The position numbers were made by a program. A stretch of DNA of 57,325 nt from a phage, in assembly GCA_025497365.1 (NCBI GenBank), contig GCA_025497365.1_4955.1. One strand, given 5' to 3'. Below, one piece after another: positions 33,001-39,000 of the stretch; position 1 is the stretch's first letter; every line of letters starts with the position of its first letter.

Positions 33001-36000
33001 TGATTAGTGCAATAACGAAAGTTATTAGCACAATTCTAAACCCCATTTTAAAATTGTTCATGCCGAATACCAGTGCGTCGGCTAATCTTAAGAATTCACG
33101 TTCAGCGTCATCTAACAACGCGCTTCAGGGGCGTACTAATGCTTCACGACCGGGTGAACGTATTTCTGATATTCGTGGTCGTGTACTGGCATATCCTGAT
33201 TTGTTAATGGACTACCGAATCTTCATTGACCGAACAGAATACGAAGTTCAGTTTCTGTGTCTGGGTGCTGGTGAATACGAAGTCGAAGACGTTCGTGATG
33301 GTATTACACCTGCGGTAAATATCAGTGGTGAAAAATTAGACTTTTATAAAAAAGGTAATGCACCAGGGTATGGTTCTCCATATATGAATATCGGTGGTGC
33401 AATTGATATTAACACTTTTCCGATCATGGTTGCTAAGTCATCGAACGAAGCAGACGGATCTGAAGTCAAGCCACCAAACTATGCTGATATCAGTAAAGCA
33501 AGTTTTAAAGTTTACAGCACTGGTGAAATTGACACTACGATTACCAGTGATGATAACACTACGATTGACTGGTCGGAACGTGCACCAATCGGTAGTAAAA
33601 TTCGTTTATCACAATTTTACAGTTTTACACCTAATACGTTACCGTTAAACACGTATGTACGTAATGACCTGTCCGGTGAATATGATGTTATTTATGCAGG
33701 TGAGAATACGTTAATCATTGATACTAATGGTCGTGATGGTTGGGATGCTCTGTCTGAAAGTGGTCAGGCTGCGTATACACAGGCTTACTTGCGAAACGAC
33801 GGTTACTGGGAATTTGAACCCACTGAAGGAAGCGGAAATTTTTTATACAAATTTTCACCGTCTCTTGACAGTACCACGCCATATGTTGTCGGGCCTTATC
33901 TGATTGATAGTGCGGATAAGTTGATGATTAACCTTTATGCACAGAATGGCGTGTATAAAACGGACGGTGATGTTTACCCGTTTACCTGTAAATTCCAGGT
34001 AGTTTTGTCGGACCCGAACGGTGTGAAAGCAAATGTGACACATTCTATGTCTGTCAGTGGTCGCTATACAGAAGCTGTAGGCAGTTCGTTAATTGTGGAC
34101 AACCCTTTTGACGGTCCTGTTAACGTGTCTGTAAGACGACTGTCAAATACAGATAAAGATTTCGAAGGGTCTGTTGTTGATAACATTAAGTGGCGCGATT
34201 TATACGCTATCACAAACGTTTCCCCGCGTTCCTATGGTGATGTGACATTGATCCATACAGTGACGAAAGCAACAAATGCGGCACTGAAACAAAAAGAACG
34301 TAAATTAAACATGATTGCAACCCGTGTATATAACGGTGTTGCAAGTAGTAATTTTGCAGACGTTGTAATGTCAATGCACACAGATCCTTTATTTGGTCGT
34401 CGCACATTGGACACTATTGATCGCGATGCTTTATATGCTGTTAAGGAACAACTTCTTGAATATTTTGGTGACCAACGAGCAATTGAAGTTGGTTATACAT
34501 TTGATAATAACAGTACGACGTACGAAGAAGGATTGGACACTATCTGTAACACGGTGAATGTTAAACCATATCAGATCGGTAGTGTATTGTATTTCTGGCC
34601 TGAATTACCACAGGAGCAGTCCGCAATGCAATTCGGTCACGCGTTTAAGATTCCTGACAGTGATAAGCGCACACGTTCTTTTGCACCACCTAAAGAATAT
34701 ACGGGTGTTCAGGTTAAATACTTCGATCACAATGAAAAATCATATTTGTATGTAACTAAAGGTGAAGAAACAAACCTTAATAAGATAGATCTTGTTGCAT
34801 GTCAGTCGCGATATCTTGCAAACATCCGTGCTAATCGTGAGATGAATAAATTACGTTATCAACGTGTTACTCACGAGTGCACAGCGCTTAGTATCGGGTT
34901 ACAGGCTACCCCGGGTATGCGTGTGGATATGATTGACAATTCCCGTATGAAACAACACGAAGGTATTGTAGTTGACGTTGACGGTTTAACACTTATTCTT
35001 AGTGATCCTGTTACGTTCACCACGGGTAATACATACAGTATAACGTTGACACACCGACTGGGAACACTTGAAAACATTCCTGTAACTGCCGGGGATGATG
35101 AATTTTCAGTGGTAATGGCTTATCAACCGTCTGAAGAAATTTACACGGGGTGGTTACGTGACCGTACCGCATATGTTATCCGTGCTGATGACGAACGTAG
35201 CAAATTAGCAATGCTTGTTCAGAGTATGGAACCGTCAGGAAGGGATAACAATTATCAGGTAGGTTTAACGTGCATCAATTATGATGCACGTTATTATCAG
35301 GATGATTTATAACAAGTTATCTAAGCCGTTGGCTTGTTTTTTGTTACAAAATCTGAGCAGTGGAAAGATAAGCAGACAGGAGAAAAGAAAGAGCAGACTG
35401 AATGGCATCGCGTGGTCATCTTCGGTAAACTTGCTGAAGTTGCAGGAGAATACCTTCGCAAAGGTTCGCAGGTTTATATCGAAGGCCAGCTACGCACTCG
35501 TAAATGGTCTGACAGCAACGGCGTAGACCGATATACCACTGAGATTGTCATTTCACAAATGGGAGGCGTTATGCAGATGCTTGGTGGTAAACGTGATGAT
35601 TCTGGTCAGCAATCAGGCCAGCAATCAGGCCAGCAACCGCAACGACAACATAAGACTTGGAACATGGAGGATGAATAGAAATCATCAAAAGCAAGATATA
35701 TTGTCTGGAGTAAACAAGAGCGGAAGAAGATGCAAGAGAGTCATGAAGTTTGATTCTGATTACAATCTTATTTGTGAATATCCATCCTATAATTCAGCGG
35801 CGCGTGACTGTGGTTATTCAATTGAGTATCAAATAAAAAATGGCGTTAAATGCAGGAATGGATTTTTTGGGAGTATAAATCTTAGTGCATACCTACCCTT
35901 CTGATGATAAAACTAACCCCGCCGAAGCGGGGTTTTGATTACTTTATTATAGATACATGAAGTCTTACCGTTCCGCCGGTAGTAACGTCTGATACAAACG

Positions 36001-39000
36001 CCCCTGCGTTTGTGATTAACCGGATAGAACACCCTGACTGAGATATTGTATGTGGTCCTGCCGTTATAAACCCGGCTGTTGCCAGGTTAAATCCAGTATC
36101 TACGGTCACCTGAACTATAGGGTTGCGTATGTTGGCGGTGTAAGGCCAGCCTATGACGATACTATCTCCAGAAGCGCTTACAAGATAAATCCCGTTGTTC
36201 AGAAAAGACGTATTATCTATAGACCACACATTAGAGGAGCGTACCAGAGAGCAACTTAATACACTGGTGTCAGCGGAATTTTCTATCCGCAAACGCGGGT
36301 TTCTGAACTCAAAAACCCCTACAGTCGTTGTTGCGGCACCGTAAGCCAATGAAATCCAGTTATCGCCTTCGACAACAATCCAGTCACACCTCAATGTTGT
36401 CCATTCTGTGCTCGCGGTGTTGGCGATGTTTACCACTTTACGGCCGGCTGATAAACTTGCACCGGTTCTAGATTCTATTTCAATCGCAGCGTTACCAGTA
36501 GTAACTGACGTGGCGCGTACCTGCACCTGGAAGGATATAGTTGTTCCGGGCTGCAAATATCCCAAGTCGTGAAACTCTAACGCAGCGTTGGCGGATGATA
36601 TTTTATTAAGCACAGACTTATGGGTGTTACTTTTGTCGAAAGTATTTGTGCCGATAGGGAACGCGGAGTTTGAAGAAAAACTTTTCATACCGCCATGTAG
36701 CTGTTTGTAATCTGTAACATTCATATCCAGTTACCCTCTGTAAAAATCAGTAATTACGACGTCACAACCCGCAGCAACGCAGTTGTCTACCCGCGCGGGG
36801 GTGTTGGCTATGGCGTAAACAAAGGGCAACCCTCTTGATTTAATGCCGTCTACTGCCGACTGGTTAGTTATTATGACGCCTGTGAGCGTACCGGCGCAGT
36901 TACCTAACTTATACGCGAGGTCTAATTGCGCTGTAGTCAGAGCCGACCCGTAAGAGCCGATGATACCCAGCCCAATATACGCATTTTTGCTCCTCAATAA
37001 CTCCAGGTTCGCCGGGTAGGTTGAGTATAAGAAGACATCAATAGGTTTAGGGCCGTAGTATTTCTCCACGGCGGCAAGAAAATCGTCGGCTTGCGATGGT
37101 GTCATAGGCGCAGACCATTCCGCGAATGGCATAACTCCATTCCGTTTGCACTCAAACAGCCATTCACGGTAAGTTAATATTTTCTCATCTGCATAAATGC
37201 CAGATACATAACTCCCAGCATCTAAAGCTTTTAGCCCCGCCAGCGTAAAAGACGTCACATTTCCTGTCCCATTTGTTGTGCGGTCCACCGTTTCGTCGTG
37301 AAAAACTACCGGTACACCGTCTGAGGTTATCTTGGTATCACCTTCTACCCCAAAAGCCCCACGTTCAGCGGCAAACGCTATGCTCGCCCTTGTGTTTTCT
37401 GGAACAAAATACACGGGTGATGTCAAAGCACCGGAGTATTCGTTAGGCGTTACGCCATGCCACCCCCGGTGGGCGACTATTCGGGGTGTTTTGCCGTTTC
37501 GCAGAATTCGCAGAAGGTAGTCGTGTCCTGACGTTCTTTTAAGTTTAAAAGCTGAATCCATAGTTGGAATTCCAACAGTTTCAGTGTAAGGGACAACCAC
37601 AAAAAATGATTCACCACCATCCCCTGGAGAATTGTAACCTTTAATCATAACTTGCTTTCCTAACTCAAAACTGGTGAAGTTTAAAGCAGAGTTGAGATTA
37701 TCAAAAACTATTTCAGAGTTACCTATAAGCATAGAGCCTTTTTCTGAAATTAATTCACTTCTCAGTGATGCATCACCAACACTGACCCATGCTCCTAAGC
37801 CAATCCCACCAGAAGTTTCAGGAGTTGAGCCAGAGGAGACGGTTTTTGGTAGGTCGCCATCAAAACGATAATATTCTCCGTTCGCCTCATAACGCAAAAC
37901 CTGATTAGGTAGTGTCAGTGTTGCGCCATCTTCAAAGCTGTCCATAGTGATATAACCGACTTGTGATATAGCTTGATTATACAGGTTTTCTAAACCATCC
38001 AGTGTTTTGTTAGTAACTGATTCACCACGGATTGTATCGGTTACTTCCAGCGCAGGTTTACCGTTCGCATCACGACTTTTCGCAACGTGTTCAATATGTA
38101 AAATCGCTTGTTTGCCTGTTTTCAAATCATCAGCACTGATATAATCGTTACAGTTAGCCATCTTTAAGTCTCCAGGAGTGTAGAACAATGTCTGATAACC
38201 CAGTGTTGAGGTATTGGCCTATAATAGCATTTGTTGCCACGGGGTTGGTAGGTTACGGGGTAACTCAAAACCAAATCAATTCTAATGAAAAAGATATTGC
38301 AGATGCAAAAACCTATGCGCACGAGGCGCTTAATCTGGCAAAGCGAGTGGAATCCCGTGTGGATGTTCATGATATCAAAATCGAATATCAGGCAACACAG
38401 AACGCTGAAATTCTCACCAGTGTTAAAGAGCTAACACAGTCAACAAATGACCTGAAAGTTGTTATTGAAGGTTTGAAAGCGGAACAACGTAAAACCGGGA
38501 GTAAGCAATGAGTAACTTTAAATTCAGTCAGAGAAGTGAAAATAATCTGAAAGGGGTTAACCCGGATCTTGTGAAAATTGTGCGTCGGGCACTTCAGTTA
38601 TCACCCGTTGATTTCGGTATCACAGAAGGTTTACGAACTGTTGAACGACAACGACAACTGGTTGCTGCAGGTAAAAGTCAGACGATGAACAGTCGCCATA
38701 TTTCAGGCCATGCCGTGGATGTATTCGCATATCCTACACCTGCTGGGTCGTGGGAATGGAAATACTATGAACAAATTGCCACTGCATTTAAACAGGCTGC
38801 AAAAGAACTGAACATCCCTGTTGAATGGGGTGGTGACTGGAAAACCCTGAAAGATGGTCCACACTTCCAGTTACCACATGCAAAATATCCGGCGTGAGAT
38901 AACTGTCATGGACAAGTTCAGCATATTACGTAACACAACCGGGGGGATTTCTTTAAGCCGCGCACAAGCGGCTTTAGGCTTCCTCGTGGTAACAGGCATT

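What the first reader, a model, noticed from the sequence alone, without database searches (positions are those of the whole stretch)
35939..38188. Tail fibre with an embedded glycerophosphodiester phosphodiesterase-like domain
The 485-aa minus-strand fibre protein contains GDPD-like catalytic motifs (HRGWHG; EGD ... FHDE), followed by a 261-aa Thr/Ser/Gly-rich distal protein. A phosphodiesterase in a fibre suggests enzymatic processing of a glycerol-phosphate-containing surface polymer as the receptor step.
Basis: partly seen in the sequence, partly recalled or inferred. Interest (0 to 1): 0.5.

Follow-up and report, generated by a model that had tools for sequence, protein, structure and literature searches.

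The report
Phosphodiesterase tailspike with obligate partner gene
An E. coli phage has replaced the usual sugar-cutting head of its tailspike with a glycerophosphodiesterase enzyme that always travels with a small sugar-binding-like partner gene, which suggests it attacks teichoic-acid-like (polyol-phosphate) capsules or O-antigens, a target so far described only for phages of Gram-positive bacteria.

Summary
The minus-strand ORF 36731-38188 (true start probably ATG 38161, 476 aa) is a tailspike-type receptor-binding protein. It has a 9NA/CBA120-type N-terminal anchor (Pfam PF18668), a small beta domain and a C-terminal GDPD TIM barrel (PF03009, E 2.4e-25; Foldseek TM 0.83 to PDB 2pz0).

All five defining GDPD residues (2 His, 2 Glu, 1 Asp) are present. 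They are invariant across 19 relatives that go down to 41% identity.

The main new result is that the two genes form one mobile cassette. In 13 of 13 genomic contexts a ~260-aa partner homolog directly follows a gene ending in GDPD, while the N-terminal virion adapter is swapped. The contexts are 9NA/Sasha-like, P22-like, SU10-like, lambdoid prophages of E. coli, Kluyvera, Proteus and Providencia, and T1-like phages DTL and Snitter.

The window's cassette (35942-37751) replaces the single spike head of its closest relatives. It is 90.5% identical in DNA to an unrelated 72-kb phage.

The substrate is inferred, not shown; an E. coli K2-type glycosyl-glycerol-phosphate capsule is one candidate. 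The partner's role as a lectin-like subunit is also inferred. This is a new variant of a known kind.

The parts
36731..38161 (-). Tailspike-type receptor-binding protein, 476 aa from ATG 38161. The mechanical ORF extends to TTG 38188.
   Evidence: ORF. GGAG lies 8 nt upstream of ATG 38161. Pfam PF18668 + PF03009. The N-terminal ~150 aa are 78-81% identical to the 9NA and Sasha-like tailspikes.
37772..37972 (-). Tail_spike_N (TSP1/gp66-type) anchor domain, residues 64-130. It is conserved with relatives and attaches the spike to the virion.
   Evidence: Pfam E 1.6e-17. PDB 9occ_G tail protein gp13 E 5e-37, and the CBA120 TSPs.
35942..37751 (-). Horizontally swapped cassette: spike residues ~138-476 plus the whole partner gene.
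   Evidence: blastn against the closest relative BDX09P1 loses homology between window 35942 and 37751. Window 35909-37870 is 90.5% identical to the SU10-like 72-kb phage contig L002.
37484..37711 (-). Small beta-rich domain, residues 151-226, conserved in all cassette-bearing spikes. Invariant residues in 485-aa numbering are Y185, G191, G192, F196, G206, R218, G221 and H222. It is a candidate docking or oligomerisation platform.
   Evidence: Family alignment A1. pLDDT about 90-95. The function is inferred only.
36734..37483 (-). GDPD (glycerophosphodiester phosphodiesterase) TIM-barrel head, residues 227-476.
- H231/R232: nt 37466-37471
- E255/N256 (PENT): nt 37394-37399
- E273: nt 37343-37345
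- D275: nt 37337-37339
- H288: nt 37298-37300
- E348: nt 37118-37120
   Evidence: Pfam E 2.4e-25. Alignment to 2pz0 E44/D46/H59 and to the 3qvq Glu of E-L-K. These residues are invariant in 19 sequences. Foldseek gives 2pz0 TM 0.83, B. subtilis GlpQ, phage K gp155 C-terminal domain and the phi812 spike petal. Coordinates were checked.
35939..36724 (-). Partner gene, 261 aa.
- N-terminal ~45 residues: conserved but predicted disordered
- CBM-like jelly-roll: aa 28-148, nt 36281-36643
- Second beta-sandwich: aa 155-260, nt 35945-36262

Its own RBS (GAGGG) lies inside the 3' end of the spike gene, and the gap between the genes is 6 nt.
35905..35934 (-). Intrinsic terminator that closes the two-gene operon: an 8-bp stem with 6 G-C pairs, a TTCG loop and a T-rich tail.
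   Evidence: It was the only terminator-like site found in 35600-38600.

Best explanation
Window 35905-38161 (minus strand) is a two-gene receptor-binding operon of a 9NA/Sasha-like E. coli siphovirus.

**Gene 1** encodes a tailspike. Its N-terminal anchor (shared with its relatives) fixes it to the tail. Its head is a metal-dependent GDPD-family phosphodiesterase instead of the usual beta-helix glycosidase.

**Inferred mechanism.** The enzyme hydrolyses the phosphodiester bonds that link repeat units of a teichoic-acid-like (glycosyl-polyol-phosphate) capsule or O-antigen. An example is the poly(galactosyl-glycerol-phosphate) of E. coli K2/K62. This lets the phage bind, depolymerise and tunnel through the polymer to the outer membrane.

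**Gene 2** is translated from the same mRNA and encodes an obligate 261-aa partner built from two beta-sandwiches. The first resembles carbohydrate-binding modules and tail-fibre tips. Most likely it docks onto the GDPD module and supplies polymer binding or specificity, in the way separately encoded fibre-tip adhesins do. The docking could use its conserved but disordered N-terminal ~45 residues.

**Shown here:** domain identities, an intact and invariant catalytic set, the operon structure, strict co-inheritance of the two genes, and recent horizontal transfer between unrelated phages.

**Inferred:** enzymatic activity, the substrate, and virion incorporation and function of the partner.
For: **GDPD identity**
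- Pfam E 2.4e-25.
- PDB sequence hits to 2pz0 and 3qvq.
- Structural match TM 0.83 to 2pz0, and matches to the teichoic-acid hydrolase GlpQ and to the GDPD domains of phage K gp155 and the phi812 central spike.

**Catalytic competence**
- The five residues the literature defines as required (2 His, 2 Glu, 1 Asp; PMC10194240) are present.
- They are invariant across 19 sequences down to 41% identity.

**Position in the genome**
- The module replaces the single RBP head in the slot between the holin and SSB/tail genes of Bas82 and 9NA.
- Only the first ~137-150 aa are shared with relatives.

**Cassette**
- A partner homolog lies 0-16 nt downstream of a gene ending in GDPD in 13/13 contexts, across at least 5 phage lineages. 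The N-terminal adapters differ: PF18668, PF09008 (P22 head-binding), PF03906 (T7), or none recognised.
- Pairwise identities of the two genes correlate (r = 0.94), and the partner diverges faster, for example 39% against 53%.
- The partner family is never fused to another protein and contains only about 8 clusters at 50% identity among 1.84 billion representatives.

**Partner fold and operon**
- CBM and fibre-tip-like fold.
- Operon with coupled RBS and one terminator.

**A substrate class exists in E. coli**
- The K2 capsule is a WTA-type-II-like poly(glycosyl-glycerol-phosphate) (PMC5974469).
Against: - No biochemical data exist, and the host strain and serotype are unknown.
- The cassette is absent from 5,426 complete E. 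coli genomes, so no link between prophage and host serotype could be drawn.
- Phage DTL, which carries a distant version, was isolated on capsule-less, O-antigen-less E. coli K-12. A polyol-phosphate polymer is therefore not needed for plaque formation by at least that phage.
- The canonical E-x-K motif is E-W-S in this family, and a ~17-aa insertion follows HRG. Substrate specificity may therefore differ from classical glycerophosphodiesters.
- The partner model has only moderate confidence (pLDDT 73).
- No complex prediction could be run.
Confidence: 0.6

Rival explanations
1. The 261-aa partner is an assembly chaperone for the GDPD spike. It would act in folding or trimerisation, like tail-fibre assembly proteins or T4 gp38, and would not be part of the mature virion. 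The spike alone would do both binding and cleavage.
For: - The gene sits immediately downstream with coupled translation, and co-inheritance and co-divergence are strict. This is the classic layout of fibre chaperones.
- A TIM-barrel head lacks the self-trimerising beta-helix of ordinary spikes.
Against: - It has no similarity to any known fibre-assembly family in Pfam, PHROGs or NCBIfam.
- The predicted fold resembles CBMs and tail-fibre distal domains rather than chaperones.
- It diverges faster than the enzyme, as exposed specificity determinants do.
- At 261 aa it is larger than most such chaperones (own knowledge).
Confidence: 0.2
2. The GDPD head is active but its target is not a glycerol-phosphate repeat polymer. 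Alternatives are ribitol-phosphate or sugar-1-phosphate-linked capsules or O-antigens, phosphoglycerol decorations, or the (lyso)phosphatidylglycerol anchor of group 2 capsules or ECA-PG.
For: - GDPD-fold relatives include lysoPG phospholipase D (8ghh, E 3e-13) and lysoplasmalogenase.
- The family has E-W-S instead of E-x-K, and an extra loop next to the active site.
- DTL grows on K-12, which lacks capsule and O-antigen.
- The ECA-PG phosphodiester anchor is noted in PMC10743462.
Against: - The closest sequence and structure matches are bona fide glycerophosphodiesterases, and GlpQ acts on glycerol-phosphate teichoic acid.
- Lipid anchors are buried in the outer leaflet, which is a poor site for a spike head.
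- Spike heads in this genomic slot normally act on long surface polymers.
Confidence: 0.15
3. The GDPD domain is a catalytically dead binding module, or the partner is an unrelated moron (lysogenic-conversion, exclusion or defence gene) that merely sits beside the spike.
For: - In the P22-like prophage L001 the partner lies between the tailspike and the integrase, where conversion genes often sit.
- No activity has been measured.
Against: - All catalytic and metal residues are invariant across the family.
- The partner also occurs in phages with no integrase in the stretch examined and whose relatives are, to my knowledge, virulent (Sasha-like, SU10-like, T1-like).
- It always follows a gene ending in GDPD (13/13) and co-diverges with it.
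- It has no signal peptide or TM segment and no defence-family hit.
Confidence: 0.05

Closest known systems
Tail-associated GDPD domains of Gram-positive phages (Staphylococcus phage K gp155 and phi812 central spike 'petal' domain, PDB 9f5m/9eul/9euf; Lactobacillus Ld17-type, Enterococcus and Listeria tail GDPDs)
   Different: - Sequence identity is only about 21-33%.
- Those hosts are Gram-positive and the target is wall teichoic acid.
- The GDPD there sits on central spike, Tal or baseplate proteins, not on a P22/9NA-type modular tailspike.
- No dedicated ~260-aa partner gene is described for them.
Modular enterobacterial tailspikes (9NA gp55, P22 gp9, CBA120 TSPs, Bas82 tail fibre)
   Same: They share the genomic slot and the N-terminal anchor: 78-81% identity to 9NA and Sasha over ~140 aa, and PF18668. 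They follow the same logic of a conserved adapter plus an exchangeable enzymatic head that recombines at the linker.
   Different: - Their head is a trimeric beta-helix glycosidase, lyase or esterase encoded in a single gene.
- Here the head is a TIM-barrel phosphodiesterase, and a second gene belongs to the exchangeable unit.
Bacterial GlpQ/UgpQ-type glycerophosphodiesterases (T. tengcongensis GDPD 2pz0, B. subtilis GlpQ 5t91, Oleispira 3qvq)
   Same: Fold, catalytic residues and GDPD-insertion subdomain are shared, with TM 0.75-0.83 and 24-27% identity.
   Different: - Those are free-standing metabolic enzymes.
- This family has E-W-S instead of E-x-K and a ~17-aa loop after HRG.
- It also has an extra N-terminal beta domain and a virion anchor.
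Separately encoded fibre-tip adhesins (T2/T6/S16 gp38) and second RBPs docking on a first RBP (KP32 gp38, G7C gp66); analogy from own knowledge
   Same: In both cases a small protein encoded directly downstream of the fibre or spike gene is proposed to attach to it and to set specificity.
   Different: There is no sequence or fold relationship, and attachment of the 261-aa protein has not been demonstrated.
Drexlerviridae phages DTL (MG050172) and Snitter (MZ333132)
   Same: They have the same two-gene arrangement of a tail protein with C-terminal GDPD followed by a ~263-265-aa partner. The partner is homologous by profile comparison: hhalign 86% probability, E 4.9e-6; hmmsearch scores above all 1000 shuffles.
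   Different: - GDPD identity is only 28-37%.
- Snitter keeps the canonical E-L-K, and neither phage has the post-HRG insertion.
- The N-terminal parts differ.
- Both are uncharacterised, and the DTL partner ORF is not annotated.

Membership tests
GDPD / GP-PDE family (Pfam PF03009) | Profile match above the curated threshold over the full domain | tested here: met
   90.5 bits against a cut-off of 23.6, E 2.4e-25, covering profile positions 9-241 of 244. NCBIfam PRK09454 gives E 1.9e-24 but falls below its equivalog cut-off, so the protein belongs to the family without being a UgpQ ortholog.
GDPD / GP-PDE family (Pfam PF03009) | Two catalytic histidines acting as general acid and base (2pz0 H17 and H59) | tested here: met
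   H288 aligns to 2pz0 H59. H231 lies in the HRG motif at the start of strand 1. Both are invariant in 19 sequences (H240 and H297 in 485-aa numbering).
GDPD / GP-PDE family (Pfam PF03009) | Three metal ligands, Glu, Asp and Glu (2pz0 E44, D46, E119) | tested here: met
   E273 and D275 align exactly to E44 and D46. E348 aligns to the Glu of E-L-K in 3qvq. All three are invariant. The Lys of E-x-K is not conserved: the family has E-W-S.
GDPD / GP-PDE family (Pfam PF03009) | (beta/alpha)8 TIM-barrel fold with a GDPD-insertion subdomain | tested here: met
   The AF2 model has pLDDT >90 across the domain. Foldseek TM is 0.83 to 2pz0 and 0.75-0.78 to GlpQ and 3qvq.
GDPD / GP-PDE family (Pfam PF03009) | Metal-dependent hydrolysis of glycerophosphodiesters | not testable with these tools
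   This needs an enzyme assay.
9NA/CBA120-type modular tailspikes | N-terminal Tail_spike_N anchor homologous to virion-attached spikes, in the RBP slot of the genome | tested here: met
   PF18668 E 1.6e-17. 81% identity to the 9NA tailspike N-terminus. The gene occupies the same slot between the holin and SSB/tail genes.
9NA/CBA120-type modular tailspikes | Trimeric right-handed beta-helix catalytic body | tested here: not met
   The body is a small beta domain plus a TIM barrel. Oligomeric state was not tested.
Carbohydrate-binding modules of the CBM4/16/22 beta-jelly-roll type (for the 261-aa partner) | Beta-sandwich jelly-roll fold | tested here: inconclusive
Carbohydrate-binding modules of the CBM4/16/22 beta-jelly-roll type (for the 261-aa partner) | Sequence-family membership or demonstrated glycan binding | tested here: not met
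   There is no Pfam, NCBIfam or PHROG hit. Identity to the structural hits is 9-15%. Glycan binding cannot be tested here.
Tail-fibre assembly chaperones | Match to known chaperone families | tested here: not met
   No hit in Pfam, PHROGs or NCBIfam.

The most novel reading that the evidence does not exclude
The cassette is a split capsule/O-antigen depolymerase specific for teichoic-acid-like (glycosyl-polyol-phosphate) polymers of Gram-negative bacteria. A GDPD phosphodiesterase spike and a separately encoded lectin-like subunit would form an obligate hetero-complex. This would be the first phosphodiesterase-class phage depolymerase for Gram-negative surface glycans, such as E. coli K2/K62 and the related polymers of Proteus and Providencia O-antigens. 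It would move as a plug-in unit between sipho- and podoviruses.
Probability: 0.35. Interest if true: 0.65.

Novelty: new variant of a known kind. Interest (0 to 1): 0.5.

Why it matters
Known depolymerases of Gram-negative phages are glycosidases, lyases and esterases. A phosphodiesterase head would add a chemical class aimed at phosphate-linked, teichoic-acid-like capsules and O-antigens. These include the K2 capsule of uropathogenic E. coli, for which I found no described phage enzyme in the library searched.

The strict pairing with an orphan ~260-aa protein defines a two-component receptor-binding module. Current annotation pipelines miss it: the partner is 'hypothetical' or unannotated. 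This matters for host-range prediction and for engineering phages or enzymes against such capsules.

The 90% DNA identity between the cassette in a siphovirus and in an unrelated 72-kb phage is also a clean example of recent RBP module exchange across morphotypes.

Tried and rejected
1. **Host serotype via prophage carriers.** Three DNA searches of 5,426 complete E. coli genomes found nothing. They used the window cassette and two prophage versions.
2. **Scan of GTDB species genomes** with partner motifs gave no confirmed hit. IMG/VR gave one short contig.
3. **Literature search for a GDPD tailspike in Gram-negative phages** found only Gram-positive cases. The one exception, a Yersinia phage GDPD, is assigned there to nucleotide modification, not to the tail.
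4. **Papers on the CFT073 K2 capsule and phages** name no K2 depolymerase. Reviews searched for Proteus and Providencia glycerol-phosphate O-antigens gave nothing citable, so that point rests on my own knowledge.
5. **Sequence-family searches for the partner** in Pfam, PHROGs, NCBIfam, PADLOC and tblastn against phages all gave no hit. The weak distant profile hits P0137-P0140 carry no Pfam domain.
6. **Membrane or secreted conversion protein.** I rejected this reading of the partner because it has no hydrophobic segment.
7. **Dead enzyme.** I rejected this reading of the GDPD because its catalytic residues are invariant.

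
Full report
**1. Observation.** The two minus-strand ORFs are present exactly as described: 36731..38188 (485 aa from the first possible start, a TTG) and 35939..36724 (261 aa). The quoted motifs exist.

The real start of the first gene is most likely ATG 38161, which has GGAG 8 nt upstream. This gives 476 aa. The TTG at 38188 coincides with the start codon of the divergent holin gene, and homology to the 9NA tailspike begins around residue 8-10 of the mechanical ORF.

The second gene starts 6 nt after the stop of the first, with its own GAGGG inside the end of gene 1. An 8-bp G+C-rich hairpin with a T-rich tail follows its stop directly. It was the only terminator-like site in 35600-38600. 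The two genes therefore form one operon.

**2. What gene 1 is.** Pfam finds two domains:
- Tail_spike_N, PF18668, residues 73-139 of the 485-aa form, E 1.6e-17.
- GDPD, PF03009, residues 258-482, E 2.4e-25, 90.5 bits against a cut-off of 23.6.

PHROGs places the N-terminus in many tail-spike and tail-fibre families. The PDB sequence search gives spike N-termini (9occ gp13, CBA120 TSPs) for the front of the protein and glycerophosphodiesterases (2pz0, 3qvq, GlpQ 5t91) for the back.

An AF2 model built on 19 relatives has pLDDT >90 across residues ~160-485. Its barrel superposes on 2pz0 with TM 0.83 (E 4.7e-19). It also matches B. subtilis GlpQ, the C-terminal domain of phage K gp155 (9f5m, TM 0.81) and the petal domain of the phi812 central spike (9eul).

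The GDPD domain is the C-terminal head of the protein. It is not embedded.

**3. Catalytic residues.** The literature defines five required residues: two His and three metal ligands, Glu, Asp and Glu (PMC10194240, citing Shi 2008 and Cornelissen 2016).

In the phmmer alignments, E273, D275 and H288 (476-aa numbering) fall exactly on 2pz0 E44, D46 and H59. E348 falls on the Glu of E-L-K in 3qvq. H231-R232 form the HRG motif.

All of these, plus the PENT motif, are invariant in a 19-sequence family alignment that reaches 41% identity.

Two family-specific deviations were seen:
- The Lys of E-x-K is replaced, giving an invariant E-W-S.
- A ~17-residue low-confidence loop is inserted between HRG and PENT.

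The enzyme looks competent.

**4. Genomic setting.** The window is a Sashavirus/9NA-like siphovirus. It is 98% identical to Sashavirus BDX09P1 over the first 25 kb, and close to AVIO78A, PDP46, 536P12 and Bas82.

In Bas82 and 9NA a single RBP gene (647 and 673 aa) fills the slot between the holin and the SSB/tail genes. In the window, homology to BDX09P1 is lost between 35942 and 37751. That stretch covers spike residue ~137 to the end plus the whole second gene.

The same 1.96 kb (35909-37870) is 90.5% identical in DNA to a ~72-kb SU10-portal-type phage contig from metagenomes (L002). That contig shows no other similarity within the 6.7-kb window stretch compared, and its neighbouring genes are different. 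This is a recent module transfer between phage types.

**5. The cassette.** Searching 5.8 billion proteins with the C-terminal 340 aa gave about 21 close relatives at 45-98% identity with full coverage. Their N-termini differ: PF18668, the P22 head-binding domain PF09008, the T7 tail-fibre N-terminus PF03906, or none recognised. They come from E. coli, Kluyvera, Proteus mirabilis and Providencia.

The 261-aa protein has only 10 homologs there. An exhaustive profile search of 1.84 billion representatives found about 8 clusters. All are stand-alone proteins of 256-266 aa, and none is fused to anything.

Every context examined has a 257-265-aa homolog directly after the GDPD-ending gene:

| Context | Locus |
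|---|---|
| This window (Sasha/9NA-like siphovirus) | window |
| P22-like prophage, between ant and int | L001 |
| SU10-like phage | L002 (L003-L005 carry the identical spike) |
| Kluyvera prophage | L006 |
| Proteus prophage | L007 |
| Providencia prophage | L008 |
| Metagenomic siphovirus | L009 |
| E. coli prophage | L010 |
| IMG/VR contig | L011 |

Pairwise identities of the GDPD module and the partner correlate (r = 0.94 over 28 pairs, which are not phylogenetically independent). The partner is always the more diverged of the two, and the N-terminal adapters are often unrelated.

**6. Extension to T1-like phages.** The weak GDPD hits among Gram-negative phages in GenBank include E. coli phage DTL and Erwinia phage Snitter. 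Both have a tail protein ending in a full GDPD domain (Pfam E 2.7e-27 and 1.9e-39). Both are followed by a ~263-265-aa ORF, which is 'hypothetical' in Snitter and unannotated in DTL (L012:4237-5034).

These ORFs are distant homologs of the partner:
- hmmsearch gives 15.8 and 11.6 bits, against a maximum of 7.4 for 1000 shuffled decoys.
- hhalign gives 86% probability and E 4.9e-6 over 170 columns spanning both domains.

Further members of this branch (L017, L019) again follow GDPD-ending genes. In total, 13 of 13 contexts show the pairing.

**7. What the partner looks like.** It has no Pfam, PHROG, NCBIfam or PADLOC match and no tblastn hit in 50,697 phage records. It has no hydrophobic segment.

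The N-terminal ~45 residues are strongly conserved (G12, M13, F16, P23, G25, N27, T28, K31, K36, N40, K41 and S43 are invariant). They are predicted with low confidence. This pattern fits a peptide that folds on a binding partner, but that is inference.

**8. Mechanism (inferred).** The spike attaches to the tail through its conserved anchor. The GDPD head hydrolyses phosphodiester links of a surface polymer, taking the place of the glycosidase heads of its relatives. The partner, made from the same mRNA, probably docks on the GDPD module and provides polymer binding or specificity.

A suitable substrate class exists in E. coli: the K2/K62 capsule is a poly(glycosyl-glycerol-phosphate) resembling type II wall teichoic acid (PMC5974469). 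Proteus and Providencia O-antigens often contain glycerol or ribitol phosphate; this is my own knowledge and was not verified here.

**9. Caveats.**
- There are no activity data and the host serotype is unknown.
- The cassette is absent from complete E. coli genomes.
- DTL grows on K-12.
- The active site is altered (E-W-S, extra loop).
- The partner model has moderate confidence and its fold is common.

**10. Comparison and novelty.** GDPD domains on phage tails are known, but the described cases are all Gram-positive and target teichoic acid. I found no paper describing a GDPD tailspike in a Gram-negative phage, or the partner family.

Databases label the prophage copies only as 'glycerophosphodiester phosphodiesterase family protein' or 'hypothetical'.

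I classify this as a new variant of a known kind: a known enzyme class on a known modular spike scaffold, in a new host group, with a previously unrecognised obligate partner gene. Interest is 0.5.

Noticed in passing
L012:4237-5034 (Escherichia phage DTL, MG050172, complement 37766..38563): An unannotated 265-aa ORF lies 16 nt downstream of the GDPD-bearing 'putative tail fiber protein' ORF58. It is a distant homolog of the window's 261-aa partner and 33% identical to Snitter QXG07654.
   Followed up: yes
window 35909-37870 vs L002:6370-8331: The spike-head plus partner cassette, including the terminator, is 90.5% identical in DNA to a ~72-kb SU10-portal-type phage contig recovered from several metagenomes. 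No similarity to that contig was seen elsewhere in the window stretch compared. This indicates recent exchange between phage morphotypes.
   Followed up: partly
window 35650-35894: Homology to the closest relative BDX09P1 is also lost here, between the end of the SSB gene and the terminator. The stretch contains the C-terminal end of SSB and most of a 119-aa plus-strand ORF (35545..35904) with no Pfam hit. Its origin is unexplained.
   Followed up: no
window 35334-35678 (+): The SSB ORF matches the Pfam SSB profile only from position 28 onward (114 aa from a TTG start). It therefore appears N-terminally short compared with canonical SSBs. The equivalent gene in Bas82 starts at the same relative position.
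   Followed up: no
window 39828-41281 (-): Three adjacent genes lie downstream of the lysis cassette: a macro-domain protein (PF01661, E 9e-20), a phage Dam-type N6-adenine methyltransferase (PF05869) and a DUF7768/DUF4406 protein. The 9NA counterpart of the last one is annotated as nucleoside 2-deoxyribosyltransferase. This may be a DNA-modification or anti-defence cluster.
   Followed up: no
window 37112-37120 and 37400-37462 (-): There are family-specific active-site deviations. An invariant E-W-S replaces the canonical GDPD E-x-K motif, and a ~17-aa low-confidence loop is inserted between HRG and PENT. Snitter lacks both; DTL lacks the loop (its E-x-K position was not examined). This hints at an altered, perhaps polymeric, substrate.
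   Followed up: partly
window 38161-38188: The mechanical start of the spike ORF (TTG 38188) coincides with the ATG of the divergently transcribed holin gene. With the likely ATG start at 38161, only 26 nt separate the two divergent genes, and no sigma-70-like promoter was detected there.
   Followed up: partly
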